A program made the translations under genes and the position numbers. A stretch of 39,839 nucleotides of DNA from Naegleria gruberi (taxonomy: Eukaryota), in assembly GCA_000004985.1 (NCBI GenBank), contig GG738940.1. One strand, given 5' to 3'. Positions within the stretch are counted from its first letter, which is position 1. Each line of letters begins with the position of its first letter. The notes under the pieces were generated by a model, which saw only the letters and a program-made list of their open reading frames with translations, searched no databases and was not told the origin of the DNA. Positions 123-39,839 of this stretch are shown here, piece by piece.

Positions 123-1610
123 ATGTCAACAACAACTACCAAAGAATCTTCTACCGAAACAGCAACAACAAATAATCAGAGTCATGATTTTGCTTATCTC
201 GATTCATCGGATCAAATATTTCAACTCTTAATGGCCAGAGAAAAAACAAAACAATTAGAATACGAAATTAAATTAAAAGAATTAAATTTACTACAAAATC
301 AATCACTATTAAAAAAACGATCATTTGATACATTTAATCAAATGATGAATGGACATGATGATCAAGATCAATATAATTCAAGTAATGTATTAAAAAAACA
401 AAAGAAGGCAAATTTATGTCAAGATGNNNNNNNNNNNNNNNNNNNNNNNNNNNNNNNNNNNNNNNNNNNNNNNNNNATCATCATCATCATCGATAATATT
501 GTTACTCAAGAAGAAGAATTAGCCTCTGGATCTGTTGAAAATAATTTAATTCCTTCCTTTGATTTATTACCCTCAACTCAACATTCTATTGTACCATCAC
601 TAAAAACCAATCCACTCACATCATCACCAACAACACCAAGTAATTCAGGTTTAGTTGGTTCTTCATCTGATAATAAGAGAACCTATCAATCTATGATATC
701 GGCACTTTCCTTAACACAACATCAAGAAGCAGCTGATAATGAAGAGGCATCATCACCAACATCACCAAATAGTACAAATAATCAGTCTTTATTGGATCAA
801 TCCACTTTGGAATCTGATAAGAAAAAGACAAGAAGAACAAAAACTAAGACATCTTCATCTTCTGCTTCAAATAAGAATTGTAGAGATGATTCTTCCCTGC
901 GATTATTAACACGTAAATTTATTCATTTAATTGCTGATGCAAAAGATGGTGTTTTGGATTTAAATCATGCAGCAGAAACACTAAGTGTTCAAAAACGTAG
1001 AATTTATGATATTACCAATGTATTAGAAGGAATAGGATTAATTGAAAAGAAATCTAAGAATAATATTCAATGGCTAGGTACAGGTATTGCAGTAAATGCA
1101 CCTGAAAATTGTGAGCAAGTTAAAATCATTCAAAATGAAATTGCTCAAATTGAATATCAAGAAAGACAAGTTGATCAATTAATTTATCATGTACAGGAAT
1201 CTCTTAGATGCTTAAACGAAAGTGAACAAAATAGAAGATTAGCATTCGTTACCTATGATGATGTTTTAGATATTTCAACATTGAAGGATAGAACTGTTAT
1301 TGCTATTAAAGCTCCTTCAGGTACAACTTTAACAGTTCCTGATCCTGATGAAGGTATGGAAATGGGAAAGAGAAGATATCAAATATTTTTGAAATCACCT
1401 GCTGAACCTATTGATGTTTATCTTGTGGATAGAGATTCTGATCAACAACAACAAGCTAATCATTCTGGAGATCCAATGTTGGAAAATGTTGTGACGACAC
1501 CTGTTAATCAAACATTTGAAGAAAAACAAGCTAATCAACAAACTAATAGTGGTGATGATTTTATGTTTGAAATGGAATCTGGTGAAGGTGTATCTGATTT
1601 GTTCTTATAA
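123..1610 (+). CDS. E2F-family transcription factor (winged-helix DNA-binding domain, dimerisation coiled coil, marked box, C-terminal pocket-protein-binding motif); contains the 50-N gap at 427..476
   Basis: The motif RRIYDITNVLEGIGLIEKKSKNNIQWLG is the canonical E2F DNA-binding signature. Downstream are a leucine-zipper/coiled-coil segment, a marked-box-like segment (KRRYQIFLKSPAEPIDVYLV) and a C-terminal EGVSDLF tail resembling the Rb-binding D-x-x-DLFD motif. The ATG sits after an A-rich leader. Confidence 0.8.
   Translation: MSTTTTKESSTETATTNNQSHDFAYLDSSDQIFQLLMAREKTKQLEYEIKLKELNLLQNQSLLKKRSFDTFNQMMNGHDDQDQYNSSNVLKKQKKANLCQDXXXXXXXXXXXXXXXXXIIIIIDNIVTQEEELASGSVENNLIPSFDLLPSTQHSIVPSLKTNPLTSSPTTPSNSGLVGSSSDNKRTYQSMISALSLTQHQEAADNEEASSPTSPNSTNNQSLLDQSTLESDKKKTRRTKTKTSSSSASNKNCRDDSSLRLLTRKFIHLIADAKDGVLDLNHAAETLSVQKRRIYDITNVLEGIGLIEKKSKNNIQWLGTGIAVNAPENCEQVKIIQNEIAQIEYQERQVDQLIYHVQESLRCLNESEQNRRLAFVTYDDVLDISTLKDRTVIAIKAPSGTTLTVPDPDEGMEMGKRRYQIFLKSPAEPIDVYLVDRDSDQQQQANHSGDPMLENVVTTPVNQTFEEKQANQQTNSGDDFMFEMESGEGVSDLFL
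427..476. other. assembly gap (50 N) inside the E2F CDS
   Basis: N run in the sequence; (ATC)n triplets abut it. Confidence 0.99.
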
Positions 1611-3615: not shown

Positions 3616-4429
3616 NNNNNNNNNNNNNNNNNNNNNNNNNNNNNNNNNNNNNNNNNNNNNNNNNNNNNNNNNNNNNNNNNNNNNNNNNNNNNNNNNNNNN
3701 NNNNNNNNNNNNNNNNNNNNNNNNNNNNNNNNNNNNNNNNNNNNNNNNNNNNNNNNNNNNNNNNNNNNNNNNNNNNNNNNNNNNNNNNNNNNNNNNNNNN
3801 NNNNNNNNNNNNNNNNNNNNNNNNNNNNNNNNNNNNNNNNNNNNNNNNNNNNNNNNNNNNNNNNNNNNNNNNNNNNNNNNNNNNNNNNNNNNNNNNNNNN
3901 NNNNNNNNNNNNNNNNNNNNNNNNNNNNNNNNNNNNNNNNNNNNNNNNNNNNNNNNNNNNNNNNNNNNNNNNNNNNNNNNNNNNNNNNNNNNNNNNNNNN
4001 NNNNNNNNNNNNNNNNNNNNNNNNNNNNNNNNNNNNNNNNNNNNNNNNNNNNNNNNNNNNNNNNNNNNNNNNNNNNNNNNNNNNNNNNNNNNNNNNNNNN
4101 NNNNNNNNNNNNNNNNNNNNNNNNNNNNNNNNNNNNNNNNNNNNNNNNNNNNNNNNNNNNNNNNNNNNNNNNNNNNNNNNNNNNNNNNNNNNNNNNNNNN
4201 NNNNNNNNNNNNNNNNNNNNNNNNNNNNNNNNNNNNNNNNNNNNNNNNNNNNNNNNNNNNNNNNNNNNNNNNNNNNNNNNNNNNNNNNNNNNNNNNNNNN
4301 NNNNNNNNNNNNNNNNNNNNNNNNNNNNNNNNNNNNNNNNNNNNNNNNNNNNNNNNNNNNNNNNNNNNNNNNNNNNNNNNNNNNNNNNNNNNNNNNNNNN
4401 NNNNNNNNNNNNNNNNNNNNNNNNNNNNN
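3616..4429. other. assembly gap (814 N)
   Basis: N run. ORFs in the track that span it (3605..5152 on minus, 3611..4447 on plus) are artefacts of translating N. Confidence 0.99.
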
Positions 4430-14888: not shown

Positions 14889-14948
14889 CTCTCTCCGCNN
14901 NNNNNNNNNNNNNNNNNNNNNNNNNNNNNNNNNNNNNNNNNNNNNNNN
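14889..14948. other. assembly gap (60 N) in the divergent intergenic region between the TLC and formin genes
   Basis: N run. Confidence 0.99.
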
Positions 14949-15183: not shown

Positions 15184-18100
15184 ATGGAAAATATTGCCTT
15201 CTTTATTCAAAATGTTCAAAAAATTGGATTAAAATGTGAATGGACAATTAGAGCATTACACAAAAATTCTGATCTTAATTCTGTTTTGAAAACTGTAATT
15301 GATTTATCAAAACATTTTGAAACCAAGTTTAGAAATTCAAATGCAGTCCAATCTAAAAACAGTAGTAGTGAAGAGGAATTATTTACTGGACCTTTCTTGA
15401 AATTACCAATTTTATTTAAACAACCATCAAATGCAACTATTGAAGTGAATGCTTCTGTACCAATGTGGAAAAGTGCATTAAGAAAGACAACCAGTGGTGT
15501 GAAATTAACAAGTGAAACTGAAACAACAACAACTCCAGCAACGACAACGACTGAGGAAAAAACATCAACTCCTACTGCCACAACTCCAATAGAGAAATCT
15601 TCACCAACAACTTTACAAAATACAGTTTCAACTCCTTCTACAGTAGAAGTTAAACCAGAAACTAAAACAACTGCATCAAATTCTAATGCAAGTTCTACTG
15701 CCACTAGTTCAAAAAGTACTGCCACTGCAAGTAAGCAGCAACCAACACAAGAAGTTGTGGAAAAGAAAGTTGAACCAACAAACAAGGATGTTAAAACAAC
15801 ATCCGCCACTGTTGCTACCAAGGAAGTGACCACAAAAACACCAGTAACTACTGAGGTCAATCCAACAAGTGATAAAAAGACAGCAACAGGAACTTCTGCA
15901 AATAATGGCAGTAGCTCAAGTTCGACATCTAATTCATCTACTGGAAATTCATCACCAAGAGAAAAGATTCCTGACAAGACTTCTCCAACAACTGCTGCTA
16001 TTCCTTCTAAGGCAATTTTAAAGCCAACTAGCAAGACAAGCAATAATACTCCTTCTACCCCTCAATCAAGTGGACAAGTGCCTGGGGAATGGACTAAATT
16101 GAAGCCAACAAATTCTGGAAATAACCTCAAAGAAGCTGCCAACTCTGAAAAGCAACCTGAATTTTTAACAAATCGATTAAGACCTGTCTCTGTAAAGATG
16201 AACGCATCACCACTATCTGAAGCACTCAAGAATGAAAATTCAACAAAGGAAACCCCAAGTACAACTGCACCTGTGGTCGAAAAGCAACCAGTGACTAAGG
16301 TTGAACCAGTTAAAGATGTCAAGACTACAACTCCTGTTACTACTAAGGAAGTTACCACAACACCTGTCAAGGAAGAAAAGCTAATTCCTCAAAAAACAAC
16401 TCCTCCAAAAGAGGTTACACCAAGTAAGGATGTTAAAAAAGATCCAGTTTCAACTCCTCAAGAAGCATCTCCTAATACTGGAGTTTCATATTTGGCTAAT
16501 TTGAAATCTACACATGCTAAGAATGTCTCAACTCCAACATCAAATGAAGTGCCAAATTTCAAGGCCCAACTGAAACCAGTTGCCAAACCAGCAAATGAAC
16601 CTTCAAATAATACACCAACATCAGTAAGTGCAACAACAGGAGGCGGTATTTTCCCAGTTCAATTGAAAAAAACAAACATTTCACTTGCATCTTTGGAAAA
16701 TAAGGAAACAACCTCTCCTTCAGGTTCCAACACAAAAACCAATTCAGGATTCGGCTCTCCAAGAAGTGATTCTGGATCAAGTACTACAAATACCAGTCAA
16801 TATGTGGCTAATGAATCTACTGCAGATTCATTGTCTGAAGATGGATCAAGTGTAATGGACTTTGATGAAGATGAAGAAGACATGAGTAATGATCAAGGAA
16901 TTTCTTATAATATTAAGAAATTGAAAGATCAAGTCACTAATCAACATCCTTCTGCTGAATATTTGTACTCACTTTACAAACTTATTGAGAAGAAATCAGT
17001 GAAATGGTGTACAAAATTCTCAGATCAAGAAGGAGGTGCCAAATATCTTGGCCAAATCATCACAACCATGAATGAAAAGAAATATAGAAGTATGAATGAA
17101 AAAACAGTTCAAGAAAGAAGTTTGAAATGTTGTCACGCTCTGATTGAAAAGGGTATTTTTGATCCATTCCTCAAGAATCCAAGTTCTGTTTCTGCGATTA
17201 CTTTCATGATTGATTCAAAAGATGGTATCAAGATTAGAATTATGGCTTTGGAAATCTTGTCATTGATTTGTACTTATAATGAACAAGGTTTTTGGACAGT
17301 TCTGGAAGGGTTAAACAGATACAAAACAGAAAAGAAGGAACCAAGAAGATTCCGTGACTTGATTGAATTCCTTAAAGTAGAAAAGGATGAAAAGTTGAAA
17401 ACTTTCTGTTTAATGTTATTGAACTCACTTATTAACACTCCTCAAGATTCGTTTATTAGAATTTTGATCAGAAATGAATTGAAACAACTTGGATTGGAAA
17501 CAGTTGTTGATAAATTGAGTAATGATCTGCAACATGATAGAATTAGAGATGAAAATTTGAAAGAACAAATTAAAGTTTTCGAAGAAGAAATGATGATTGG
17601 TTTAATTGAAAAAGAACAAGCAGGTGTTTCAGATGATTCTGAGAACACAACTGAAAATCTCTTTAAGAATTTCAAATCCGAGACTGATCCATTGAAAATT
17701 GTCAAATTACTCATCTTGAGATTGGGTGCCACAACTGGTACCTCACATTTGGTATCTATTTTACAAAATTTACTTTCCTACTCGATGAGTTCAAGTATGG
17801 ATCCAAAGTTTGAACCACAATTATTAACAAGTTGGAAGAATTTGGACAATACCATTAAATCAATGGTTCAAGCTTGTCAAATGAAAGGAGATAGTGGTAT
17901 TATTGAAGATATTGCCAAGAAGGAAAAGAATGCCAGTTTTGAGAAACAAAAACAAACTTCCAAGATTTCAAACCTCAACTTGACTATTGAAAAAACCAAC
18001 AAGGAAATTGACGAGTTGAAGAAACAAGTTGAAAATTGGAAGGTCAAATTCAATGAATCAACAAAGAATATTTCTATTCTTTCTAACCAATTGAATAATC

Positions 18101-20352
18101 TCCAAGCCAATAAGGACAACAATGCTCAACCAAATGATGTTAAAGTTGAACCAGTTCAACAAATTATTCCAATTGATACACAAATTTTCACAAAAGAAAT
18201 TGATGAACTGAAATTACTCGTTAAAGAAAAAGAGGATTCCGTAGAGAATGTAAATAAGGAGAATGACAAGCTCAAGGATCAGTTGAAAGAATTGTTAATG
18301 GAATTGGAAGAACACAGAAGAATGTCCTTCAAACAATCCTTACAAACTACTACAGGAACAGTCAGATCTAATTCTAGCAATACTTCGAGCATCTCTGAGG
18401 TCAGCAATCAGAATAGTGCTGTCATTGATCTAGAACCTTCTTTCACAACCGGTGCTGCTGGTTCTGGATTTGTACCTCCACCTCCAGGAGCTAGTGGTAG
18501 TGGATTTGTACCTCCACCTCCAACTGGAGCCTCTTCTGGTGGTTCCAGTCCTAATATTCCTCAAGTTCCAAACATGACTGGAGCTGGTTTACCTCCTCCA
18601 CCTCCTTCTGGTATTGTATCAATGTCAAAGAAGAATCCACTACCAGAATTATCAAAGAGAGCTCCAAAGAGTGCAGTTAAAAACTTTTATGGTGTTGCCA
18701 TCAATAGACATAAGGTTTCACAAACATGTTGGGTTAAAGGTGGTATTGCAGCTGAGTCTAAGGAAGTTCAAATTGATGAAGATGAATTGGAAGACTTGTT
18801 CTCAAATGCTCCAAAAAAGAACAACAAAGACGAGGAAAAGAAGCGTAAGGAATTGATATCATTTGTTGAACCACAAAAAGGAAGCGCTCTCTCAATTTTA
18901 TTGGGATATATTCGATTGGATTATTCTGAGATTAAGAGAGCCATTTTAGAAATGGATGAGGAAGTTTTGACTGCTCAAGTTGTTGATACTCTAAAGGATA
19001 AGATGGCAACTGCTGATGAATTGTCACAAATTGAGGCATACAATGGCGATGCAGATTTATTATCACCTGTAGATAAGTTTTATTTGGCCCTCAAGGATGT
19101 TCCAAGATTGGAAGGAAGATTATTCTGTTGGGCTTCAGATTTAAATTCCAAACAGAAGTATCAGAAGTTTTATCTGATTTGGAAACAGTTTTAACTGCTT
19201 CCACTCAAGTAGTTCAAAGTAGTAGATTTAAGAGATTGTTAGCTGTTATTTTGGCTATTGCTAACTTTTTGAATGCAAACTCTTCATCAAAGAAGAACGC
19301 CTATGGGTTCACATTGAACAGTTTGTCCAAGTTGCAAGACACCAAGACATCAGATAACAAGTCATCTCTCTTACAATATATCAGTTCATATTGTGAAAAA
19401 TCATTCCCTGATCTATTGAATATTAAGGAAGATTTTTCATCATTGGAGGATGCTACTCGTGTTTCCCTCGTTGAATCAGATAATGAATACAGAAAGTTAA
19501 AACAAGGATTTGAAACTATGGAAAGAGAATTACAGAATCCACAATGGGAATCCACAACTTTCAAGAATAACATGAGTGAATTCATGGAAAGTGCCACAAG
19601 ATTTTTAGATGATATTGATTCAATCTTATCAAAGATTGATGAGAAGTTAAAACAAATTGCTGAAGATTTTGCTGAGGACGAAAAGACAGTTTGTAAGAAT
19701 CCAAATGAACTCTTCCAAACCCTCAACAATTTCCTCAATAACTTTAGAAATGGTTATGAAGAACTTGTGAAACAGAGAGAAGCTGACGAAAAGAAGAAAC
19801 TCAAACAAAAAATCATGGAAGAAAAGAAGAAACAATCGGCTGCCTTCTTTTCCAATCATACCAACATGAGAAGTGAGNNNNNNNNNNNNNNNNNNNNNNN
19901 NNNNNNNNNNNNNNNNNNNNNNNNNNNGAAGCAACGATGCTCTCAAATCATCAACCATTACCAATGTACAGCAACAACCAGCAACTACGAGTCCACAAGA
20001 TTCAATTATTCCATCTTCACCACCTCCTCCACCTCCTGTTTCCTCTTCTTTAGAATCATCATCATCATCTACAAGTGAAATTGAATCATTCAATCCTCCA
20101 ACAATCAATACAGAACCAGTGTCATCGACAATTAACACAGAAACGTTATCAACAAGTACTCCAATTGAAGCTGAAACATCTGTAACAACACCATCATCAC
20201 AAGAAACCTCCTCTTCAGATGTAATGTCAGAGGCTGAACATTTAGAACTGTTGACCAAGATGAGAGACAGAAAGAAGAGTATTATGAGTGGATCTGCATT
20301 CAGAGAAAGAAGAATGACAAGATTTGCTATGGAAAGCAATGAACAACAATAA
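15184..20352 (+). CDS. diaphanous-related formin with an S/T-rich N-terminus, GBD/FH3, coiled coil, FH1 poly-Pro, FH2 and C-terminal DAD. The frame changes at ~19129 (GGG run), and the 50-N gap at 19878..19927 also changes the frame.
   Basis: The armadillo-like GBD/FH3 region reads KWCTKFSDQEGGAKYLGQIITTM...ALEILSLICTYNEQGFW. The FH1 region has GFVPPPPGASGSGFVPPPPTG...GLPPPPPSG. The FH2 region has KNFYGVAINRHKVSQTCWVK...LEGRLFCW, and continues in the -1 frame as GFRFKFQTEVSEV...NANSSSKKNAYGFTLNSLSKLQDTKTSDNKSSLL. After the gap, the adjacent frame carries a DAD-like tail: MSEAEHLELLTKMRDRKKSIMSGSAFRERRMTR (compare mDia ...MDSLLEAL..SGAAFRRKR). Confidence 0.8.
19878..19927. other. assembly gap (50 N) inside the formin 3' region
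   Basis: N run. Confidence 0.99.
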
Positions 20353-23990: not shown

Positions 23991-26900
23991 TTATTTTGTC
24001 TCGAGAATTGATTGTAACTTATTCAATTGTAAACTAATCTCTGTAAATGAAGGACGACTAGAAGGATCCTTATCCCAACAAACTTTTATCAGCTCTATAA
24101 ATTTCCTAGTAAATTCTGATAATTTTTCCAATGATAATTTCTTCTCTGTTGGTAAAATAAATTCACTCAACCAAACATTCATCTCCTCATTGGTAGAGAA
24201 GGGTATTTTAGGTCTTGATCCCTTTAACACATTCAATAGAACATTGTATTCATTCATACTATTTGATGAATCATTTGATCCAAATCTGTGAATTTTGTAA
24301 ACTCTAGAATTGTAATAACAGTGTTCTTCAAAGAAAACTTCCCACATGATAATGGAGAAACTGTACACATCGACCTTGGTGGTATAGGATCCACTTTCAA
24401 TCATTTCTGATGCTATATAGAAAATTGTGCCTATATTCTTAGTTGAGGCACTATCATTAGGTGTTGATAATCCAAAATCTGAAACCTTTCCAATAAAATC
24501 ATCAGTAATGAGAATATTTCCTGGTTTTAAATCTCTGAAGATGGAAATTAAAAATCAATCCAAATGATGAAACTTACCTGTGAATTATAGGAGGATTCAA
24601 TGTGTGAAGATATTTCATTCCGTTGGCAACTGAAATTAAAATATCAAGTTTTCTTTTCAAATTTAAAGTAGAAACTCCTATTCTTGAATTGTAAATCAAT
24701 CGATCCAAACTTCCATGATTAATATACTCCACAACCATATATCTGTGATTGGAGGTCATGGAAATTCCATAAAATTTGACAATATTTGGATGAGATAAAC
24801 TATTTAAAATTGCTGCTTCTCTTTCAAAATCACCTATTTCATCTCCAATTGTATCTGACTTGAGTGATTTGATAGCAACTTGTTTACCTTTCCATTTACC
24901 CAAATAAACAATCCCATTACTTCCCTCTCCTATTTTCTTTTCAATTGAAATTTCTTCAATTGGAATAATCAAAGATTGTGAAGAATTGGAATTATTTGAA
25001 TTGACCAAAAGTGGTTGACTTTCATAATAGAATGAATTTTCAATAATTTTGTCTTCCAAATTCTTTTCGGCAATTTCCTTTCTCTTGAGACGGTTTAGTT
25101 TCACATAAATATGTCTCACTCCTCTGAATGTAAGAATCAATAAAAGAATGATAACAATCATTAATAGAATTCCCAGAACCACACTTATTGGAATGATAAT
25201 TAGAGCAGAATTATCAACAATTGTATCATAACAAACGAAACCCGTAGAAAGTGGATTTTGAAGTTCTTTTCCCTTTGGACAATCTAAAATATTAATGGTG
25301 ATATTCTGAACAATATTTTGGATTGTAATATGTCCGTGTACTTGTTTCAGTTGTCTTTCTTCTATGGCAAGTGAATAGGTTACTGCATTCAGTTGATTTG
25401 GAATAAACTTTTTCGAATAAATCATACCATCTGATAAAGAAACAAAAACGTCCACTTGACTTTGTAACTTTTTGACTGGAACTCTTTCTCCATTATTGTA
25501 GGTCTGTAAATTTTCTATACTAATTGTCAGCTCTTGTCCTGGATATTGAGAGTAGATAATATCTTGATTTTCAATTACTTTTGTAACAACAGTATTATTA
25601 CCAGATATTACATCTACAGAAAGTGTGATATTGTTAAGCGGTTCTCCAATGAAATCTCCATACGATCCGGCTTCATTATGATCCTTCAAGAGAAAACTTG
25701 ATTCAATATATGGACCTGGCTCTGAAATATAAATGCAACCTCCAGAGAATAGCGCACGACTATATTTACACTCCAAATAATCCAAAATCACGAATGGTTT
25801 TGGATTTTCAACAAAAATAGCACCTCCAAGTTGGGCAGTATTATAGTCCATTGTAGCTCTCAATTCCAAAGGATCAGTACCCAATAATTTGGCATAGATA
25901 GCACCTCCCATTAGGGCACTATTGTTGTAAGCGAGTAGGTCTAATGCAATTGTCAGTCCTTCAATATAGACAGCACCTCCTTTCACTGCCTTGTTTCCGT
26001 TAAAATAGCCATCCTTAATTTGAATGGTATTTGCCTTAATATAAACTCCATTTGGTATTGTTAAATCTCCATTATTGTTAAAATCACAACTATCTAGTAG
26101 GAAAGATGACTGGACAACATCCATCAATGAATCAACACGTAGGGAAATACTAGTATTTCTAAAGTTAGTTTGAAAAAGTGAAATGTAATTGCTTTGAGAA
26201 ACGCTGATACCATTCTTAACATTATCAAAATTATTCACTTGGAACATTGTTTGTAAAGTGTTTGCAATTTGGAATACTGGATTGTTTGAAAGCAAATTAT
26301 TAAAATCATTCCATCCTATGTATAAAACATTTATGTAATAGGCAGAGAATTGAAAGTCCCCATTGCTCACCTTATTATTTTCAAATTTTGAAGACGTCAA
26401 AAAGCTCTGTCTAATAGTTACAGAGCCAGTGAAGGTATTGTGTGAAATATGAGAGGTGGATGTTCTATAAATCAAAAAATCTGAATCCTTCACTCTACTG
26501 TGAAATAAGGAAAATCCTTGTTCAACGGCAAACATGTCTTCTTGAGAAGAGGAAATAAATTGATACTTTTCAATGGTACAATTATTGAAAAATGTGCCAG
26601 GATCGAAAGATGGAATCTCTTGTACGTGTTTGATGTTTCTAAGTGTGGAATCTGTAAAATTTGCTGTAACAGTTGCATAAAATTCAACAAATTCCAATTG
26701 AGAATTTACAATGGATACAGAAATTGTTCCAAACTGACGACTTGATTCATAAATTAATGAATTATTCAGAATAGAATTCTCAATCTCTATCAATGGAACT
26801 GAAACCAAAGTATTGTCATCATTATTCATACTAAAATCATATAGTTCCAATCTCGACAACTTTAATCTATTCATGGCATTTAAATAAGTAAAGAGAGATC

Positions 26901-27375
26901 TTCCATTACATTTAAATTGAATCCTCTTGCTCTGATTAAATGGTTCCAAAATCAGACTCTGCAATGGTTGATAAGGTGCCATTCCACACTTATATTCTCC
27001 ATCCATCAAATAGACATGAACTCGAGTATTTCCAATAGAATTGGCATAGGAAATGGCATCTTCTACACTCTTGCAAGGATTATTCGGGGATGTACAATTG
27101 TGTTCCGTATTTAATGATGATGGCTGAACATAGACAATTGAATAATCATCAGATGATGAGAATGGCAACTGTTGATCTAATGATACTGATGACGGTGGTG
27201 ATGAATAATTAACTTTGTGTCCATATGGAGTGAATTCTCTTCTGGCCATACTAGTTCTCTGACCATAATGATCTCGCGGTTGTGTTGTTGTTTTTGTTGT
27301 TGTAGTCAGCACTGCTGGTAGTAGGTACCACATGAATAACAAAATGAAAATCGGGGAGATTTGGTGTCGCTTCAT
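23991..27375 (-). CDS. receptor-type TKL protein kinase with a signal peptide, a Pmp-repeat / parallel beta-helix ectodomain (GGA[IV][YF] repeats), one TM helix and a C-terminal kinase domain. Exon 1 is 27375..24578, the intron is 24577..24535 (43 nt, GT..AG), and exon 2 is 24534..23991.
   Basis: The signal peptide is MKRHQISPIFILLFMWYLLPAVL. Four F-x-x-N...GGA(V/I)(Y/F) units are present (KAVKGGAVYIEG, SALMGGAIYAKL, TAQLGGAIFVEN, ALFSGGCIYISE). The TM helix is IIIPISVVLGILLMIVIILLLILTF. The kinase domain reads IGEGSNGIVYLGKWKGKQVAIKSLK ... HTLNPPIIHR | DLKPGNILITDD...KVSDFGLS...VDVYSFSIIMWEV. The splice gives the HRDLKPGN catalytic loop, with the R codon spanning the junction. Confidence 0.75.
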
Positions 27376-34298: not shown

Positions 34299-35117
34299 TT
34301 AAGAATCACGTTTCGAATAAATATTANNNNNNNNNNNNNNNNNNNNNNNNNNNNNNNNNNNNNNNNNNNNNNNNNNAACTGCAATATGATCCTTTTGCTT
34401 GTTTGTGCAAAGAAATATGTCCACAAATTTTGGAACGTCTTTGAATACTTTGATTTCTGTAATTTTCTTCCAATCTCTAGAAATCTTTCGAATTATAATT
34501 CTCTGACTAGAGGGATAATGCTGCAAGATAAAAATTCGACCACTTTCATCAACATCAATGGCTCTAATTTTTGAATCAGAATTTGCTAACAATATCTCAC
34601 TCTCATTTTCGGTAAATGTTGAACCATTTCTGTTAAATGAAACTAGGTAGGTTGAATTTCTGATTTGTTTTGTTGAAAATAGTTTTCCATCAAAGGCTGT
34701 TGCTTTCTGAAGTTTCACCCTTTCGTTTGTCGATAATTCATTCGAATGAAGATTTTCATCATAAGCTGTAATTGTATCATCTCCTTTTCCATCAAATAAA
34801 TGTAAAACTTCATCATTGCTAAACAATACTAATGATGATGCTTTTCTACAATTTGTGTTTGATTTTGAAATTGGAATTAGACTTTTTCTATTGAAAAGTT
34901 CTATACAGCATTCACCAGATGTGATGCCTGCTGTGATGAAGATGTGTGTCTGTGTGGATTGAAGTCCTGTGATTTGGTTGTCAAGAATTATTTCATCAGA
35001 CAAAGTCCACTTGTGGAGCTTTTGCGTTTTCTTTGCAGTTTTGGCTTGGTTGAGCAATAAAATAATCCCACAACAAATTAGAATAATCGCAGCTATTAGT
35101 GCAATATTGTCTTCCAT
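34299..35117 (-). CDS. hypothetical type-II (signal-anchor) membrane protein. The C-terminal end is interrupted by the 50-N gap at 34327..34376.
   Basis: The N-terminus reads MEDNIALIAAIILICCGIILLLNQ, followed by a ~240-aa lumenal/extracellular domain with N-glycosylation sequons. The ORF continuity across the gap is uncertain. Confidence 0.45.
   Translation of the reverse strand: MEDNIALIAAIILICCGIILLLNQAKTAKKTQKLHKWTLSDEIILDNQITGLQSTQTHIFITAGITSGECCIELFNRKSLIPISKSNTNCRKASSLVLFSNDEVLHLFDGKGDDTITAYDENLHSNELSTNERVKLQKATAFDGKLFSTKQIRNSTYLVSFNRNGSTFTENESEILLANSDSKIRAIDVDESGRIFILQHYPSSQRIIIRKISRDWKKITEIKVFKDVPKFVDIFLCTNKQKDHIAVXXXXXXXXXXXXXXXXXNIYSKRDS
34303..34316. promoter_or_regulatory. AATCACGTTTCG element ~25-40 bp upstream of the ATG (34277) of the minus-strand gene 33462..34277
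   Basis: The 12-mer aatcacgtttcg is repeated exactly at 35139..35150, at the equivalent position upstream of the next gene. Confidence 0.35.
34327..34376. other. assembly gap (50 N)
   Basis: N run. Confidence 0.99.
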
Positions 35118-35137
35118 TTTTTACTTTATGAAACTTC

Positions 35138-35221
35138 AAATCACGTTTCGTGTAATTTCTGGTTGACTGTCACGTTTTTGTATTGACAGCAGCATTCTAA
35201 TTGACTTGGCACGTTTAAGTT
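35138..35221. promoter_or_regulatory. cluster of three CACGTTT motifs (including AATCACGTTTCG) in the 137-bp divergent promoter between the 34299..35117 gene (minus) and the VLIG-like gene (plus)
   Basis: The copies are caaatcacgtttcgtg (35138..), gtcacgtttttg (35169..) and ggcacgtttaag (35210..). Confidence 0.35.
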
Positions 35222-35254
35222 TTCACAATAATCCAAAATAAAAAACAATCAACC

Positions 35255-38200
35255 ATGGGTCTCAAGAAAGGTGCAAACAAGACTAAAACCTCCAAAACCA
35301 ATATTAGAGCAAAGGTGGTTGAATCCATTCAACGAACTCCAAAAATTACCATTGAACAGAACCGAGCTGTTAATATTCCTCGGTATCATCAAATTATATT
35401 TTCTGATCTGATCAGTAAAGAGAACTCATTGGGTGAAGCACACTGTGAGAAACCAACCACTCCATTCCTTTCTGACTCAACCGACACTGAATGTCATAAC
35501 TTTAGAGTTATGCTTGACATTATTGGTCAAGAAATCAAGTTGAGAAACGTTCAAAACCTGGAAGATGTACTGACCAGATTACGTGAACCATACAAAAAGC
35601 CAAAACAACATACGTACGAAAATCTTCCATGGGTTCTCAAAGTAGATGCTGTAACTTGGATTCAAATCTTTCTCAATTGTTGTGATGATTTTACAAGAAC
35701 AACAGTAATAAGACATATTTTACAATGCTCATCCATGCCTGTTCCTTTCATTCAAAGAGCAAATTTTGAACAAGATGGTAAATTGTCAGCTTTCAATCTA
35801 GATTACATTTTAAACGACAACGAATTACCGGTTCTTGAACAAAAGATGCTTCTCTGCTTGGACATGGGTGATAATGGTACAATAATGAAGCAATTAGTAA
35901 GAGGTTACAAGCAAATTGAATCCACGTCCATGGAATTGAGAGATGGTAATGTTGGACTATATGTCAATAGTAATTGTAAATATCCAATTGTTGCTCATAT
36001 CAACGATGAATTCAAAGCTGTTCCGTCAACCTTGAAGTCTATGCTTTCAATTGTTGATGCAGTGCTATTCATATTTGATCAGGATGGTTCACCTGAAGTT
36101 ATGGAACTCATTATAGATGAAATGAAACAGAGTAATTTGCCATACTACATGATATCTAAAGTGTCAAAGAGAACATTGGATGATTCAGATGATGCAGTGT
36201 TCGAAGAGGAGGATTATCATCCAACTCAAGGTTCCAATGATATTATTACCTGGATTAATACCATCGTCAAAACTCCTAAAAAGAGTACCTTCCAATATCC
36301 TCCCGATGTAGAAATTATCAAGAGCTATCCTATCTTTGAAAATGATCCATTAAGAGAGTTTTATTCCATTCTATTCGAGACTTTAAAAAGTGAGAAAGAT
36401 ACTGAGGGTGCAGATTTCAAAAAGAAATATTTTCCAATTACAACACATGCAAATGCAATTCAAGAAATGCAAGATCAAGTGTTTGCAAACAAGCAACTTC
36501 CATACTCAACGAAGAAAGAAGAAGAAGATTTCATTGCCCTTGGAAAGGTTACCTCTGAAAAGTATTTGACTCAAAATCCTTCCAAATTCATGATTAAACT
36601 TTTGAAGGCATTGAAATTGGCTGTAGAGAATAATTTGTTTCAACAATTATGGAATGTTTTTACATTTCATATTCATATTTTTGCCTATCCAAAAGTTCAA
36701 AACATTAAGCAAGAAGTACTTGGTTTAATTGATCAAATTGAAGAGCTTGAAAATTCGAATCAGCAACCTAATGAACCTCAAGCTAAGGACTTGGAAAAGA
36801 AAAAGTCAGAGTTGGAACAAGAAAAGAAAAAATTAGAGAGAAAAATGCAATCAGAATCGATTGGTGTTGAACATTTCTGGAGAGAAATTTTCCATATTTG
36901 GGTACAAATGGATAAGAAAACTATTGAGAATGTCTCAAAGAACAATGTAATGTCAGCAATACAATGTGCTATGATGACAGGATTCCCCATTGAAATTATT
37001 GATGGCGACTCCAACTCAATTAATGAACATTTCTTAGAAGAATTCTTTACAAAGCTGCCAAGCGATATTGCAAAAAGTAGAGTTCTATTTGTTTCAATTC
37101 TTGGCCATCAAAGTTCTTACAAAAGTACTGTTATGAACTCACTATTTAATAGTCAGTTTTCAATGGGTCAAGGAAAATGTACAAGAGGTGTTCAAATTTC
37201 CTTACACAAGTGTTCGCACACATCAAAATATGATTATATTGTTGCTTGTGATGTTGAAGGTTTAGAATCTGTTGAAATGGAGATTAACAAGAACTCTTCT
37301 TTTAATTCATTCTTTTATAATCATAGATTGGCTTTAGTTTCTATTTACTTGTCGCATTTAGTTCTTATTTCAAGTAAGGGTGAAGTTGACGCAACATTAA
37401 CAGGTACATTAGAAGTCTGTATTTATGCCATGGCCATGTTGAAGAAGACATTATCTCATCCTTCATTCTGTGTGGTTTCAAACAATTGTACTGACACTAA
37501 ACAAGATGCATTACTTCACAATGACAAAATCAAACAGTTATTAGTGAGAGGAGTCTCTAAATTCAATGAGCACTTTAATGAAGACGTCCAATTATCAGAT
37601 CTGGTTCCATCTCGTGAGTGCATGTATTTGACACCTGCTTTTGAACCAGAAACTAAAAACTTTACCAGAAGTTATAGTTACAGAGTACGAAAGTTGTTGG
37701 ACTATATTTTGACAATTCCAACACATCAAGATTTCTCAAACTTTGGTTCTTGGGTAACCAATCTATTGAGTGCGTGGAAATCTTTGAGAGAACACGATTT
37801 CGCTCTCTGTTATAAAGACTTGACAGAGTTAGAAAACTTCCAACAACTGAAAAACATAGGCAAAGAGTATGAGTCTTCTGTGGCACTTGAATTGGAACAA
37901 TTGGTATTGAAATATCGTACGGAAAACGTTGATTACTTGGAAGTTATTGCCAAAATTGAAGACCTTGCCTTTCAAGTATTTGAAAACTATAAGGAAAAAA
38001 TCAAAGAAGACAAATTCATGTTATGGAAAGACAAATTTACAATCAATTTTGATAATTTCAAGAATGATTACATAACAAAAAAGAAAGCAGAGATGAAAGT
38101 TGTTCAGGCATTTAAAAATACTACCAATCAAGTTGGTGACGCTATTCAGCAAGTTAACAGAAAAATCAAAGAGGAATATCAGCTATTGAAACAAATGTCA

Positions 38201-39664
38201 GAAAAAGAGAGAGAAGAAAGAATCAATACTTATTGGATGGAAAGCAGAGCCAATATCCAAAAAGTTTCTGAAGATTTCAAAAAAAGAATTGAAGAAATGG
38301 AATATGAATACCGTGGACTTGTTAGAAGATATTGGATAGAAACCAATTTATCATGCCAAGCTCTATCAAAAGAAGATGTTGACGTTGATGAAAAAGCGTA
38401 TATTCTTTTGGTAAAGGTTTCAAAAGAACAATTTAGAACACTTTTTGATCAAATTGGCTTAGAAATTAGTAAGAGAGGGAGATTTTCAATTTATGAGTTC
38501 GGTGATATGTCAACCCATTTGTCTAATCTTTACAATGGATGGTGTGGAAAGAATCATCTTGAACCTTGTATTGAAAGAAGAAAAAAGGTTTTTGGATATT
38601 GTATCAATCCACTTCTTCAGCAATACACAAAGAAGGAAACAGAGTTTGTCAATGAAAATGATCCTCTCATCAAATATGACAACACCAAACCAGTATTCAT
38701 AGCTACAGCTAATACGTCATTCAAAGATATTGTTGATGATTTTGACAATGCCAAAAACATTGCTAAAAAATTATATGATCTAATCCAGTCAATCGCAATA
38801 GATTCCTGCTATCTAAAGATATACAATTATTTGGAGAACTCCTTATTGCTTAGTAATTTAGAATTTGATTCTGCTAAATTAGCAAAGGAAAATAATTTAC
38901 TTGGTGCAAAACTTTACTTCACAAATATTGAACTATTTGCAAAGAATTATCTGGTTAAAGAACAAGAAAAAATTATTTCTCAAAATATTCAAGATCTATT
39001 GCAAGAGATGAATACTGTTATTGGAAATCATGTCCGGTTTTTAAATGAAATAATATCAAATAGTGAACCATCCAATGCTCAAGACTTGTATGAAAAGATA
39101 AAGCAACAGTCCTCATCCACAAAATATGCAAACCTTGGCTCTGAATTCACAGTAATACTTTTCAAGGATTGTAGTACTATTGGAGGAAAAATAAGCCAAG
39201 AGCTTACCAGTTTAAAAGAGAAATCTCCAATTACAACCATACCAGTATTTGAATTTGATGACCTCCTGAAAAGAAAAATTGGCTGTACTCATCAATGCCC
39301 TTGTTGTGGAGCAAAGTGTGCTCATGGTTATGGACATTCTGAAAATCATAGCACTATAGTTCACCATTTTTGCTCTTTTAGAAGCGTTCGCGAAAAGCAT
39401 TCGCAGGAGGCTTGTTTGGAGCTTTGTACTGAACAAAAACCTGGAACGCTCTGGAATGACATTCCTTGGGGTGAGTATGTTACCAAGGGAGATATGGCCA
39501 ACTGGGATGTAAAGTATGACCAGGCGTCTACCAGATCTGCAAGAATGTGGGTGAAAAAGATGTGGTCTGTTTTGGGAGAAGAGTTTTGTAAAGAATATAG
39601 AATGAAATTCAAAACAGATCCATCATGGGCTGACATAACATGGGAGAGTCTCAATATCAATTAA
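35255..39664 (+). CDS. VLIG / URGCP-like very large GTPase-family protein (1469 aa) with a non-canonical P-loop (GHQSSYKST instead of GxQSSGKST) and a C-terminal Cys/His-rich cluster
   Basis: The motif VLFVSILGHQSSYKSTVMNSLFNSQFSMGQGKCTRGVQISL matches the VLIG-family G1 region pattern [VL]LG.QSSGKSTLLN.LFG..F......CTRG. Downstream, DYIVACDVEGLESVE matches the DxEGL switch/G3 region, and NHRLALVSIYLSHLVL parallels the family's DNELATF.IGLSD block. The C-terminus reads CTHQCPCCGAKCAHGYGHSENHSTIVHHFCSF. It is a single uninterrupted ORF. Confidence 0.6.
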   Translation: MGLKKGANKTKTSKTNIRAKVVESIQRTPKITIEQNRAVNIPRYHQIIFSDLISKENSLGEAHCEKPTTPFLSDSTDTECHNFRVMLDIIGQEIKLRNVQNLEDVLTRLREPYKKPKQHTYENLPWVLKVDAVTWIQIFLNCCDDFTRTTVIRHILQCSSMPVPFIQRANFEQDGKLSAFNLDYILNDNELPVLEQKMLLCLDMGDNGTIMKQLVRGYKQIESTSMELRDGNVGLYVNSNCKYPIVAHINDEFKAVPSTLKSMLSIVDAVLFIFDQDGSPEVMELIIDEMKQSNLPYYMISKVSKRTLDDSDDAVFEEEDYHPTQGSNDIITWINTIVKTPKKSTFQYPPDVEIIKSYPIFENDPLREFYSILFETLKSEKDTEGADFKKKYFPITTHANAIQEMQDQVFANKQLPYSTKKEEEDFIALGKVTSEKYLTQNPSKFMIKLLKALKLAVENNLFQQLWNVFTFHIHIFAYPKVQNIKQEVLGLIDQIEELENSNQQPNEPQAKDLEKKKSELEQEKKKLERKMQSESIGVEHFWREIFHIWVQMDKKTIENVSKNNVMSAIQCAMMTGFPIEIIDGDSNSINEHFLEEFFTKLPSDIAKSRVLFVSILGHQSSYKSTVMNSLFNSQFSMGQGKCTRGVQISLHKCSHTSKYDYIVACDVEGLESVEMEINKNSSFNSFFYNHRLALVSIYLSHLVLISSKGEVDATLTGTLEVCIYAMAMLKKTLSHPSFCVVSNNCTDTKQDALLHNDKIKQLLVRGVSKFNEHFNEDVQLSDLVPSRECMYLTPAFEPETKNFTRSYSYRVRKLLDYILTIPTHQDFSNFGSWVTNLLSAWKSLREHDFALCYKDLTELENFQQLKNIGKEYESSVALELEQLVLKYRTENVDYLEVIAKIEDLAFQVFENYKEKIKEDKFMLWKDKFTINFDNFKNDYITKKKAEMKVVQAFKNTTNQVGDAIQQVNRKIKEEYQLLKQMSEKEREERINTYWMESRANIQKVSEDFKKRIEEMEYEYRGLVRRYWIETNLSCQALSKEDVDVDEKAYILLVKVSKEQFRTLFDQIGLEISKRGRFSIYEFGDMSTHLSNLYNGWCGKNHLEPCIERRKKVFGYCINPLLQQYTKKETEFVNENDPLIKYDNTKPVFIATANTSFKDIVDDFDNAKNIAKKLYDLIQSIAIDSCYLKIYNYLENSLLLSNLEFDSAKLAKENNLLGAKLYFTNIELFAKNYLVKEQEKIISQNIQDLLQEMNTVIGNHVRFLNEIISNSEPSNAQDLYEKIKQQSSSTKYANLGSEFTVILFKDCSTIGGKISQELTSLKEKSPITTIPVFEFDDLLKRKIGCTHQCPCCGAKCAHGYGHSENHSTIVHHFCSFRSVREKHSQEACLELCTEQKPGTLWNDIPWGEYVTKGDMANWDVKYDQASTRSARMWVKKMWSVLGEEFCKEYRMKFKTDPSWADITWESLNIN

Positions 39665-39839
39665 ACTCAAACTTATCATCTAATACTTGTACCAATCTGC
39701 TCATTTCAGTTTAGTTCAGAATATCTTCCGTCTTACTATGTCCCAACCAAGTAGTTTTAACAAATAATTTATTTGATACAAGGTTTAATCAAGATCTACA
39801 TCTTCGTCTTCTTGTTTGCTTGGTGGTGGGACTCTTCGC

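What the first reader, a model, noticed from the sequence alone, without database searches (positions are those of the whole stretch)
35255..39664. Giant VLIG/URGCP-like GTPase homolog with a Gly-to-Tyr substituted Walker A and an added Cys/His cluster
The 1469-aa ORF has the diagnostic VLIG-family G-domain block (ILGHQSSYKSTVMNSLF...CTRG...DVEGL). VLIG/GVIN/URGCP proteins are best known as interferon-inducible giant GTPases of vertebrates and some invertebrates. A homolog in an AT-rich protist-like genome is phylogenetically interesting. The second conserved Walker-A glycine is replaced by Tyr (GxxxxYKST), which would be expected to perturb the phosphate-binding loop. That suggests a pseudo-GTPase or an unusual nucleotide-binding mode. 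The C-terminal C-x3-C-x-CC-x3-C-x-H cluster is not a feature I associate with the family. The gene shares a 137-bp divergent promoter, carrying repeated CACGTTT motifs, with a type-II membrane protein gene.
Basis: partly seen in the sequence, partly recalled or inferred. Interest (0 to 1): 0.7.

Follow-up and report, generated by a model that had tools for sequence, protein, structure and literature searches.

The report
Divergent VLIG-type giant GTPase in Naegleria
The 1469-aa gene is a real but very divergent Naegleria gruberi member of the URGCP/VLIG/GVIN giant-GTPase family; its odd tyrosine in the nucleotide-binding loop is genuine, while its "extra" Cys/His cluster is the family's own conserved C-terminal domain.

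Summary
The window is a complete 39,839-bp Naegleria gruberi scaffold. ORF 35255-39664 (+) is the annotated single-exon "predicted protein" XP_002668871.1 / NAEGRDRAFT_82298. It matches Pfam URGCP_GTPase well above threshold (E=5e-37). A profile of its G domain hits Sey1 and GBPs in the PDB, and an AlphaFold model (pLDDT 81.5) superposes best on GBP, atlastin, SMG9 and RNF112 large-GTPase domains.

The P-loop is GHQSSYKST. The Tyr codon (TAC, 37118-37120) is also present in an independent 99.3%-identical metagenome assembly, so it is not a sequencing error.

C-x3-C-P-x-C-x3-C...H...H...C is 95-100% conserved across the family (Pfam GVIN1_C), and only one Cys (C1350) is specific to Naegleria.

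The family is not confined to animals. Relatives occur in a dinoflagellate, a glomeromycete fungus, MMETSP/EukProt transcriptomes, Tara Oceans contigs and a compact protist contig. In that protist-type branch the "invariant" glycine is Ala in about 31% of sequences.

Naegleria sits on a long branch. It keeps K, S/T, the G2 Thr, the G3 Asp/Gly and the G4-like Asn, but changes several near-invariant residues (R641K, D689N, N706S, G632N). The most likely reading is a GTPase-impaired or atypical family member. It is a new member of a known kind and of moderate interest.

The parts
35255..39664 (+). Single-exon CDS of Naegleria gruberi NAEGRDRAFT_82298 (XP_002668871.1, UniProt D2W482), 1469 aa, about 170.6 kDa
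   Evidence: ORF list. Exact-sequence look-up gives the accession and organism. Only long open frame here, P(no stop) about 1e-52.
35660..36154 (+). N-terminal domain (aa ~136-300) resembling the degenerate G-like domain that lies upstream of the G domain in animal VLIG/URGCP proteins ('C-D-D...C...P' and 'LDMGD...' segments)
   Evidence: hhalign against an alignment of 104 upstream regions: probability 62.7%, E=7.2e-5, 162 columns. No Pfam or phmmer hit. Moderate support only.
36752..37528 (+). URGCP/VLIG-type large GTPase domain (aa 500-758), with a preceding helical segment
   Evidence: Pfam PF25683 E=5.3e-37. Profile vs PDB: Sey1 8.4e-16, GBP2/5/1 about 1e-12. AF2 model pLDDT 81.5, Foldseek best hits GBP2/5/1, SMG9, RNF112, atlastin.
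37103..37129 (+). P-loop / Walker A GHQSSYKST (aa 617-625). Tyr622 (TAC 37118-37120) replaces the second glycine
   Evidence: Sequence. Family column is G 98%. Same in independent contig L001. In 159 aligned G domains: 154 G, 2 A, 1 Y, 2 unmatched; the Y is a flatworm protein.
37178..37189 (+). Switch-I/G2 motif CTRG (aa 642-645) with conserved Thr643. The preceding family-invariant Arg is Lys641 here
   Evidence: Column conservation C100, T98, R82, G100; R641K against 95-100% Arg.
37250..37264 (+). G3 / Walker B motif DVEGL (aa 666-670). The family has DTEGL; Sey1 also has DVEG
   Evidence: Sey1 alignment 'vmDvEGtd'.
37478..37486 (+). G4-like position SNN (aa 742-744). Animal members have HQN and protist-type members have LRD; only Asn744 is kept
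   Evidence: Column conservation H79, Q80, N87. Alignment A1 with the protist-type members.
37316..37372 (+). Helix/strand segment YNHRLALVSIYLSHLVLIS (aa 688-706). It replaces the family 'HDNELAT...IN' motif, with D689N and N706S at positions conserved 97-99% and 96-98%
   Evidence: The equivalent Asp and Asn are also present in Sey1 and GBP in the profile alignments.
37535..39280 (+). Long, mostly helical middle region (aa ~761-1342). Homology to relatives fades after about aa 1000
   Evidence: Coverage map of matches. AF2 secondary structure up to aa 900.
39281..39634 (+). C-terminal Cys/His domain (aa 1343-1460), GVIN1_C type. Putative metal ligands are C1344, C1348, C1351, C1355, H1365, H1370 and C1391 (plus H1361); W1417, W1432 and W1458 are also conserved
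   Evidence: Pattern present in 99/149 relatives. Per-column conservation 95-100%. Alignment A4. Precomputed Pfam PF26772 GVIN1_C on the near-identical P0001. AF2 model pLDDT 73 with no PDB fold match.
35118..35254 (.). 137-bp divergent intergenic spacer with three CACGTTT copies (35142, 35171, 35210) inside a ~38-bp direct repeat (35157-35188 / 35195-35227)
34299..35117 (-). Divergently oriented neighbour ORF (272 aa) with an N-terminal hydrophobic anchor. It is interrupted by an assembly gap (34327-34376) and has no family match

Best explanation
This is a native, single-exon Naegleria gruberi gene. It encodes a highly divergent member of the URGCP/VLIG/GVIN family of giant GTPases, which carry a GBP/atlastin/Sey1-type large G domain of the dynamin superfamily.

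It keeps the family's overall plan:
- an upstream degenerate G-like domain
- the large G domain
- a long helical region
- the family's C-terminal Cys4-His2-Cys domain, probably metal-binding

Its G domain has drifted. The second Walker-A glycine is Tyr, and several residues that are near-invariant in the family, and shared with Sey1 and GBPs, are changed (R641K, D689N, N706S, G632N).

My best reading is a GTPase-impaired protein that binds nucleotide weakly or atypically and hydrolyses slowly or not at all. On this reading its conserved helical and C-terminal modules do the work, probably by self-assembly on a membrane or particle surface as GVIN1 and GBPs do.

Shown: family membership, domain plan, reality of the Tyr, conservation of the Cys/His ligands. 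Inferred: loss or alteration of GTPase activity, metal binding, and any defence or coat-forming role.
For: Family membership:
- Pfam PF25683 E=5.3e-37.
- 1,314 relatives at E<=1e-3 and 1,038 at E<=1e-10 in an exhaustive search.
- PDB profile hits Sey1 8.4e-16 and GBPs about 1e-12.
- AF2 model pLDDT 81.5 with GBP, SMG9, RNF112 and atlastin as best folds.

Domain plan:
- C-terminal ligands 95-100% conserved and all kept.
- N-terminal domain hhalign E=7e-5.

Native gene:
- Whole scaffold assigned to N. gruberi, with annotated eukaryotic neighbours.
- GC content like its neighbours.

Tyr is real: also present in the independent contig L001.

G-domain drift:
- Tyr at a column that is 98% Gly.
- 10 of 36 clade-conserved positions changed, including R641K (100% Arg), D689N (97%) and N706S (98%).
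- Long terminal branch of 0.69 against a median of 0.24, and 26% median identity to relatives that share 42% among themselves.

Selection for an open frame: P(no stop) about 1e-52.

Functional analogy: human GVIN1 forms a coat on cytosolic Burkholderia, and its model shows large G domains plus a C-terminal domain (bioRxiv 10.1101/2025.03.24.645074).
Against: - All residues that normally touch the nucleotide, other than the glycine, are kept: K623, S624/T625, T643, D666, G669 and N744.
- DVEG is also the Sey1 form of G3.
- In the closest, protist-type branch the same glycine is Ala in 30 of 97 sequences. These stay 47-92% identical to each other with every other motif intact. So a side chain at this position is tolerated in this family and need not abolish binding.
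- No biochemical or expression data exist. No paper mentions the protein.
- The defence or coat role is pure analogy.
Confidence: 0.55

Rival explanations
1. It is a fully functional GTPase with a non-canonical P-loop. The protist branch of the family has a P-loop geometry that tolerates a side chain at the second glycine position (Ala commonly, Tyr here). The Tyr may even contribute to nucleotide or dimer contacts.
For: - GxQSSAKST occurs in 30 of 97 protist-type sequences. It has been kept across 47-92% pairwise identity, with K-S-T, GRCT[KR]G, D[TS]EGL and IN.KG all intact.
- Naegleria keeps K623, S624, T625, T643, D666, G669 and N744.
- The P-loop region is modelled with confidence as strand-loop-helix, pLDDT about 88-91.
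- A flatworm family member that is otherwise canonical (HDNELAT and HQN kept) independently has GVQSSYKST.
Against: - Tyr is far bulkier than Ala.
- No other member of the protist-type set has Tyr (0 of 97).
- Naegleria also changes other near-invariant positions (R641K, D689N, N706S, G632N) that the Ala-type proteins keep.
- From general knowledge of P-loop NTPases (for example Ras G15A), a side chain at this position normally abolishes nucleotide binding.
Confidence: 0.3
2. It is a decaying gene under relaxed constraint, on its way to becoming a pseudogene. The odd P-loop is one symptom.
For: - Between the reference and the metagenome strain there are 13 nonsynonymous and 5 synonymous differences, giving a rough dN/dS near 0.8.
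- The other strain's contig carries a 5-bp deletion (36279-36283) that breaks the frame.
- Protein divergence is about 1.2%, against 0.3-0.5% for the neighbouring TLC-domain protein.
- The branch is long.
- No closer relative than about 25-31% identity appears anywhere in 1.84 billion representatives, so no ortholog is visible in other sequenced Naegleria species.
Against: - A 1469-codon open frame in 34% GC DNA is not kept by chance (about 1e-52).
- All seven C-terminal Cys/His ligands, the conserved Trp residues and 26 of 36 clade-conserved G-domain positions are retained despite the long branch.
- The strain comparison rests on only 18 substitutions.
- The 5-bp deletion lies in a short-read metagenome assembly and may be an assembly error.
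- Fast evolution is also typical of defence genes.
Confidence: 0.12
3. It is animal-derived DNA: contamination of the assembly, or a recent horizontal transfer from a metazoan.
For: The named best hits are mostly animal proteins, such as frogs, sturgeon, oyster and rotifers.
Against: - Best identity to any animal protein is only about 25-31%.
- The gene lies within a scaffold of Naegleria genes, 137 bp from its neighbour, and has the same GC content.
- The same locus was recovered in an independent assembly.
- Its nearest neighbours in the tree are protist-type sequences that share 'SHLvlIxxKGE', not the animal 'HDNELAT'/'HQN' motifs.
Confidence: 0.02

Closest known systems
URGCP / VLIG-1 / GVIN1 giant GTPases of animals (Pfam PF25683 URGCP_GTPase plus PF26772 GVIN1_C; PROSITE 'VLIG-type G domain')
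   Same: - G-domain profile match above threshold.
- P-loop context ILGxQSSxKST..N..F, switch-I GxCTRG and G3 DxEGL.
- A helical region follows the G domain.
- The C-terminal GC-x3-CP-x-C-x3-C...H...H...C...W domain has every ligand conserved.
- There is a probable upstream degenerate G-like domain.
- The ORF is one long exon.

   Different: - Tyr replaces the second Walker-A glycine.
- 'HDNELAT' is replaced by YNHRLAL, and 'HQN' by SNN.
- It has one module only, at 170 kDa against 200-285 kDa for VLIGs (PMC8286824) and two modules in some vertebrate giants.
- Identity is only about 25-31%.
- Naegleria has no interferon system (general knowledge).
Unnamed protist-type branch of the same family (P0122 on compact protist contig L002; P0034; P0060; Polarella glacialis P0243; MMETSP/EukProt/Tara fragments; bdelloid-rotifer records)
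   Same: - Nearest neighbours in the NJ tree.
- Shared 'SHLvlIxxKGE' segment and FW.E helix before the G domain.
- Relaxed second glycine (Ala in about 31%).
- Full-length members have the same single-module length and C-terminal Cys/His domain.

   Different: - These keep the RD-type G4 ('FVLRD'), Arg in GRCT, Asp in 'FD.Q' and Asn in 'IN.KG'. Naegleria has changed all four.
- None of them has Tyr.

GBP / atlastin / Sey1(RHD3) large G domains of the dynamin superfamily
   Same: - Best sequence-profile matches (Sey1 5CA8, GBP1/2/5) and best fold matches (GBP2 6VKJ, GBP5 7E5A, GBP1 2BC9, atlastin-1, RNF112, SMG9).
- The Sey1 P-loop GSQSTGKST and its DVEG are especially close.

   Different: - No GBP-type arginine finger in the P-loop.
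- Different C-terminal domains; the Cys/His domain has no solved counterpart.
- The Pfam RHD3 and Dynamin_N scores are below their thresholds.
PseudoGTPases (for example degenerate septins, PMC10731463; the SMG8/SMG9 G-fold proteins)
   Same: The G fold is retained while canonical motif residues are substituted. SMG9 is among the best fold matches.
   Different: Most nucleotide-contacting residues are still present here. Loss of binding or hydrolysis has not been tested.

Membership tests
URGCP/VLIG/GVIN giant GTPases | Significant match to the family G-domain profile (Pfam PF25683) above the gathering score | tested here: met
   E=5.3e-37, 127.9 bits against a cut-off of 55, aa 500-758 on profile positions 73-337 of 396.
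URGCP/VLIG/GVIN giant GTPases | Canonical G1 motif GxxxxGK[ST] (family form G-[VIL]-Q-S-[ST]-G-K-S-T) | tested here: not met
   GHQSSYKST. The column is 98% Gly in 158 aligned relatives. The Tyr is confirmed in an independent assembly. All other P-loop positions match.
URGCP/VLIG/GVIN giant GTPases | G2 'G-R-C-T-[RK]-G' with the switch-I Thr, and G3 'D-T-E-G-L' | tested here: met
   GKCTRG and DVEGL. C642, T643, G645, D666, E668, G669 and L670 are kept. R641K and T667V are substitutions.
URGCP/VLIG/GVIN giant GTPases | 'HDNELAT...IN' segment and 'HQN' (animal) or 'LRD' (protist-type) G4-like motif | tested here: not met
   YNHRLAL...IS and SNN. D689N (99% / 97% Asp), N706S (96% / 98% Asn); only N744 is kept.
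URGCP/VLIG/GVIN giant GTPases | C-terminal Cys/His domain (Pfam PF26772 GVIN1_C): C-x3-C-P-x-C-x3-C ... H ... H-R-P ... C ... W | tested here: met
   All of C1344, C1348, C1351, C1355, H1365, H1370, C1391 and W1417 are present, and each is 95-100% conserved in the family. Precomputed GVIN1_C (weak) on the 99%-identical P0001. PF26772 gave no hit in the local Pfam copy; I did not check whether that copy holds the model.
URGCP/VLIG/GVIN giant GTPases | Upstream degenerate G-like domain N-terminal to the G domain | tested here: inconclusive
   hhalign probability 62.7%, E=7.2e-5 over 162 columns. No phmmer or Pfam signal.
URGCP/VLIG/GVIN giant GTPases | GTP binding and hydrolysis; induction by infection or interferon-like signals | not testable with these tools
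   No biochemical or expression data are available. No paper mentions the protein.
Dynamin superfamily, GBP/atlastin/Sey1-type large G domain | Large G-domain fold and sequence-profile similarity to solved members | tested here: met
   Profile vs PDB: Sey1 8.4e-16, GBP2/5/1 about 1e-12. Foldseek: GBP2 6VKJ 2.8e-11, GBP5, GBP1, atlastin-1, probability 1.00. AF2 pLDDT 81.5.
PseudoGTPase (functional class) | G fold that has lost nucleotide binding and/or hydrolysis | not testable with these tools
   Only motif evidence exists. The Gly-to-Tyr change and four other near-invariant residues are altered, but K, S/T, Thr, Asp, Gly and Asn are kept. The Ala variants in the clade argue for caution.

The most novel reading that the evidence does not exclude
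VLIG/GVIN-type giant GTPases are an old, widely distributed eukaryotic family (Discoba, dinoflagellates, glomeromycete fungi, marine plankton, animals) rather than an animal invention. Their protist branch has given up the 'invariant' second Walker-A glycine (Ala in about a third of members, Tyr in Naegleria) while still using nucleotide. That would be a P-loop binding mode not described for GTPases. On this reading the Naegleria protein is a working, non-canonical giant GTPase of a bacterivorous amoeba, possibly an ancestral cell-autonomous defence factor.
Probability: 0.25. Interest if true: 0.65.

Novelty: new member of a known kind. Interest (0 to 1): 0.4.

Why it matters
GVIN/VLIG proteins are the least understood of the four interferon-inducible GTPase families. 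A function, coat formation on cytosolic bacteria, was reported only in a 2025 preprint.

A full-architecture homologue in Naegleria, together with relatives in dinoflagellates, fungi and plankton, suggests the family predates animals, as was recently argued for Mx proteins (PMC11789081). It also shows that the C-terminal Cys/His domain is the most stubbornly conserved part of the protein.

The natural Ala and Tyr variants at the Walker-A glycine provide ready-made test cases for whether these proteins need canonical GTP binding at all.

For this single gene the finding is modest. It is an unnamed database entry that can now be assigned to a family, with one unusual residue whose effect is untested.

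Tried and rejected
- Word-indexed homologue search with the full protein returned only the near-identical metagenome fragment.
- The same search with alignment A1 returned nothing, probably because K/E-rich coiled-coil words filled the candidate list. After trimming to the G-domain core it returned only fragments shorter than 300 aa.
It was rerun on aa 300-1469, so aa 1-299 were never searched exhaustively.
- The full-length protein against PDB sequences gave nothing meaningful.
- Pfam on the N-terminal 499 aa, the C-terminal 711 aa and the last 169 aa gave nothing significant.
- PADLOC defence models gave no hit.
- Giant-virus origin was checked two ways. An IMG/VR scan with the G-domain alignment found no relative. 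BFVD fold search gave only generic atlastin/GBP/Rab-like G folds. There is no support for a viral source.
- The afdb50 fold library was unavailable, so a taxon-labelled structural survey could not be done.
- The C-terminal domain model had no PDB fold match.
- Literature searches for Naegleria with URGCP or VLIG, for the accession numbers, and for non-animal VLIGs found nothing.
- A shared origin for the Naegleria and flatworm Tyr variants was rejected. The flatworm protein groups with animal sequences at 35-38% identity and keeps HDNELAT and HQN.
- Contamination or recent transfer from animals was rejected (see rival explanations).

Full report
**What the window is.**
Exact-sequence look-ups show that five of the window's ORF products are annotated Naegleria gruberi proteins, all carried on a record of exactly 39,839 bp. 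The window is therefore a whole N. gruberi scaffold. Neighbouring ORFs encode E2F, an actin-family protein, a TLC-domain protein, a formin and a protein kinase. The ORF in question is XP_002668871.1 / EFC36127.1 / NAEGRDRAFT_82298 / UniProt D2W482, named only "predicted protein". I found no paper that mentions it, or that mentions Naegleria together with URGCP or VLIG.

**Checking the observation.**
- The ORF runs 35255..39664 on the + strand and encodes 1469 aa, about 170.6 kDa.
- It is the only long open frame in this stretch. The other five frames reach at most 136 codons. At 33.9% GC, the chance of 1469 codons without a stop is about 1e-52.
- Its GC content matches its neighbours.
- The quoted motifs are all present: GHQSSYKST at aa 617-625 (DNA 37103-37129; GGC CAT CAA AGT TCT TAC AAA AGT ACT), CTRG at 642-645, DVEGL at 666-670 and CTHQCPCCGAKCAH at 1344-1357.
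An independently assembled metagenome contig (L001, ENA ERZ929261) goes some way to answering it. It is 99.3% identical over 4.2 kb and also encodes GHQSSYKST.
- The 137-bp spacer 35118-35254 holds three of the window's five CACGTTT copies. These lie within a ~38-bp direct repeat at 35157-35188 and 35195-35227.

**Family assignment.**
- Pfam URGCP_GTPase (PF25683) matches aa 500-758 with E=5.3e-37 and 127.9 bits against a cut-off of 55. RHD3_GTPase and Dynamin_N appear below their thresholds.
- An exhaustive HMMER search of aa 300-1469 against 1.84 billion representatives found 1,314 relatives at E<=1e-3 and 1,038 at E<=1e-10. Apart from the near-identical fragment, the best was only about 25% identical.
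- A profile of the G-domain core hits Sey1 (5CA8, 8.4e-16) and GBP1/2/5 (about 1e-12) among solved structures.
- An AlphaFold2 model of aa 500-900 has mean pLDDT 81.5 and pTM 0.77. It superposes best on the large G domains of GBP2, GBP5 and GBP1, followed by SMG9, RNF112 and atlastin-1.
- Membership of the URGCP/VLIG/GVIN family, within the GBP/atlastin/Sey1 branch of the dynamin superfamily, is therefore well supported.

**The Cys/His cluster is not an addition.**
- The strict pattern C-x3-C-P-x-C-x2-3-C occurs in 99 of the 149 best relatives, from frogs to oysters to a fungus.
- Column by column, C1344, C1348, C1351 and C1355 are 100% conserved, H1365 99%, H1370 100%, C1391 95%, W1417 99% and W1458 94%. 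Naegleria keeps all of them.
- Only C1350 is specific to Naegleria; the family has Phe there in 84% of sequences.
- This is the domain Pfam calls GVIN1_C (PF26772), which is precomputed as a weak hit on the 99%-identical fragment.
- A model of aa 1290-1469 (pLDDT 73) has no fold match in the PDB. That it binds metal is inference from the ligand pattern.

**The rest of the architecture.**
- Matches to relatives cover aa ~500-950 and ~1300-1450.
- The N-terminal 400 aa have no direct sequence match. However, a profile of the region upstream of the G domain in 104 relatives aligns to aa 136-300, with hhalign probability 62.7% and E=7.2e-5. The alignment includes a 'C.D...C..P' segment and a degenerate P-loop-like 'LDMGD' strand.
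- This fits the published AlphaFold3 description of GVIN1 as having two large-G-like domains, a helical linker and a C-terminal domain. I rate this part as moderate evidence.

**How unusual is the Tyr?**
- Among 159 G domains aligned from the 150 best relatives, 154 have Gly at this position, 2 have Ala, 1 has Tyr and 2 could not be matched.
- The other Tyr belongs to a protein of the monogenean flatworm Cichlidogyrus casuarinus (GVQSSYKST). That protein keeps the animal motifs and groups with animal sequences at 35-38% identity, so its Tyr is convergent.
- In a distance tree Naegleria sits on a long branch: 0.69 against a median of 0.24, with 26% median identity to relatives that share 42% among themselves. 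Its nearest neighbours are P0125, P0122 and P0060.
- Those sequences and P0034 share a 'SHLvlIxxKGE' segment with Naegleria. They carry an RD-type G4 ('FVLRD') in place of the animal 'HDNELAT' and 'HQN' motifs.

**A protist-type branch with a relaxed glycine.**
- A profile of this subgroup retrieved 120 further fragments.
- Their sources include MMETSP and EukProt transcriptomes, the dinoflagellate Polarella glacialis, bdelloid-rotifer records and many metagenomes, among them Tara Oceans contigs.
- P0122 lies on a 12.9-kb contig of tightly packed intronless genes that include IFT121/WDR35, so it comes from a compact-genome ciliated protist.
- A Gigaspora rosea (glomeromycete fungus) member also exists.
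- In this set the glycine position is Gly in 67 sequences, Ala in 30 and Tyr in none.
- Fourteen well-covered Ala-type cores are only 47-92% identical to each other (median 56%). All of them keep K-S-T, GRCT[KR]G, D[TS]EGL and IN.KG. Ala is therefore a stable, selected variant, and a side chain at this position is tolerated in this family.

**State of the Naegleria G domain.**
- Against the whole family, it keeps G617, Q619, S620, K623, S624, T625, N628, F631, C642, T643, R644, G645, D666, E668, G669, L670, E674, E710 and N744.
- It changes Gly622 to Tyr, G632N, R641K, T667V (Sey1 also has DVEG), 'HDNE' to 'YNHR', T694L, G698Y, N706S and 'HQN' to 'SNN'.
- Against its own branch, it keeps 26 of 36 positions that are at least 80% conserved. 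The 10 changes include R641K (100% Arg), D689N (97%), N706S (98%) and G632N (91%).
- The Asp and Asn equivalents are also present in Sey1 and GBPs in the profile alignments.
- The direct nucleotide ligands are thus mostly intact, but several second-shell invariant residues are not.

**Selection.**
- The long open frame and the intact C-terminal ligand set argue for purifying selection over the long term.
- Between the reference and the metagenome strain there are 13 nonsynonymous and 5 synonymous differences, which is roughly dN/dS 0.8 by my estimate from AT-rich site counts.
- The other strain also has a 5-bp deletion (36279-36283) that breaks the frame and a 6-bp insertion after 36916.
- The neighbouring TLC-domain protein differs by only 1-2 residues in 375 between strains.
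- The numbers are small, and the deletion may be an assembly error. I take this as a hint of fast evolution or relaxed constraint, not proof.

**Mechanism.**
- Most likely (0.55) this is a GTPase-impaired or atypical family member. On that reading its helical region and its Cys/His domain carry the function, by analogy with GVIN1 and GBP assemblies on microbial or membrane surfaces. That role is inferred, not shown.
- The main rival (0.3) is a working GTPase with a non-canonical P-loop, which the Ala-type branch makes credible.
- A decaying gene (0.12) and animal contamination or recent transfer (0.02) are less likely, for the reasons given in the rival explanations.

**Novelty and interest.**
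- The protein is already in public databases, and any current Pfam scan assigns it to the family, so it is a new member of a known kind.
- I did not find two points described in the searched literature: that the family, complete with its C-terminal domain, reaches into Discoba and other protists, and that the Walker-A glycine is relaxed in the protist-type branch.
- These points are of moderate interest to people working on interferon-inducible GTPases, in the way the recent paper on the ancient origin of Mx was (PMC11789081; that paper does not mention VLIG or Naegleria).
One of its two "unusual features" is ordinary for the family, and the other is untested and less decisive than it appears.

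Noticed in passing
Related proteins P0166-P0285, P0034, P0122 (locus L002 2059-6831), P0243: A protist-type branch of the VLIG/URGCP family carries 'GxQSSAKST', with Ala in place of the second Walker-A glycine, in 30 of 97 sequences. Members have diverged to 47-92% identity yet keep all other G motifs. The branch includes the dinoflagellate Polarella glacialis and a compact-genome protist. A stable natural non-glycine P-loop of this kind seems worth a study of its own.
   Followed up: partly
window 35118-35254: The divergent spacer contains a ~38-bp direct repeat (35157-35188 and 35195-35227). Each copy reads 'TTCTnnTTGACTnnnCACGTTT'. A third TCACGTTT lies at 35141-35148. Three of the window's five CACGTTT copies are in this spacer, so it is a candidate regulatory element.
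   Followed up: partly
L001 (ENA ERZ929261), aligned to window 35517-39837: A second N. gruberi-like strain in a metagenome carries the same gene at 99.3% identity, but with a 5-bp deletion at window 36279-36283 (frameshift; the called protein starts at Met405) and a 6-bp insertion after 36916. There are 13 nonsynonymous and 5 synonymous differences.
   Followed up: partly
P0132 (Cichlidogyrus casuarinus KAL3312133.1): A flatworm family member independently has the same Gly-to-Tyr P-loop (GVQSSYKST) while keeping all other animal-type motifs. This is convergent with Naegleria.
   Followed up: partly
L002 (ENA ERZ27280268, 12.9 kb): A compact contig with eight closely spaced intronless genes: IFT121/WDR35, a VLIG-type GTPase with an Ala P-loop, a C5 DNA methyltransferase, an RRM protein, a DnaJ protein and others. 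It comes from an unidentified ciliated or flagellated protist with a very dense genome.
   Followed up: partly
This suggests two complete G-domain plus Cys/His modules in tandem, either a true duplication or fused gene models.
   Followed up: no
window 427-476, 3616-4429, 14899-14948, 19878-19927, 34327-34376: There are five runs of N (assembly gaps). The last one lies inside the neighbouring ORF 34299-35117 (-), so that gene model is uncertain at its C-terminal end.
   Followed up: no
window 34299-35117 (-): The neighbour's N-terminus is MEDN, then a hydrophobic stretch (IALIAAIILICCGIILLL), then a lysine-rich stretch. It has no family match.
   Followed up: no
window 15184-19194 (+) and 24574-27375 (-): The formin ORF ends inside its FH2 domain and the kinase ORF ends halfway through its kinase domain. 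Both genes probably continue across short introns. The kinase has a long N-terminal region before the C-terminal kinase domain.
   Followed up: no
window 39281-39634 (aa 1343-1460): The family's C-terminal Cys4-His2-Cys domain has no fold match in the PDB (model pLDDT 73). It appears to be a structurally uncharacterised, probably zinc-binding domain conserved from Naegleria to vertebrates.
   Followed up: partly
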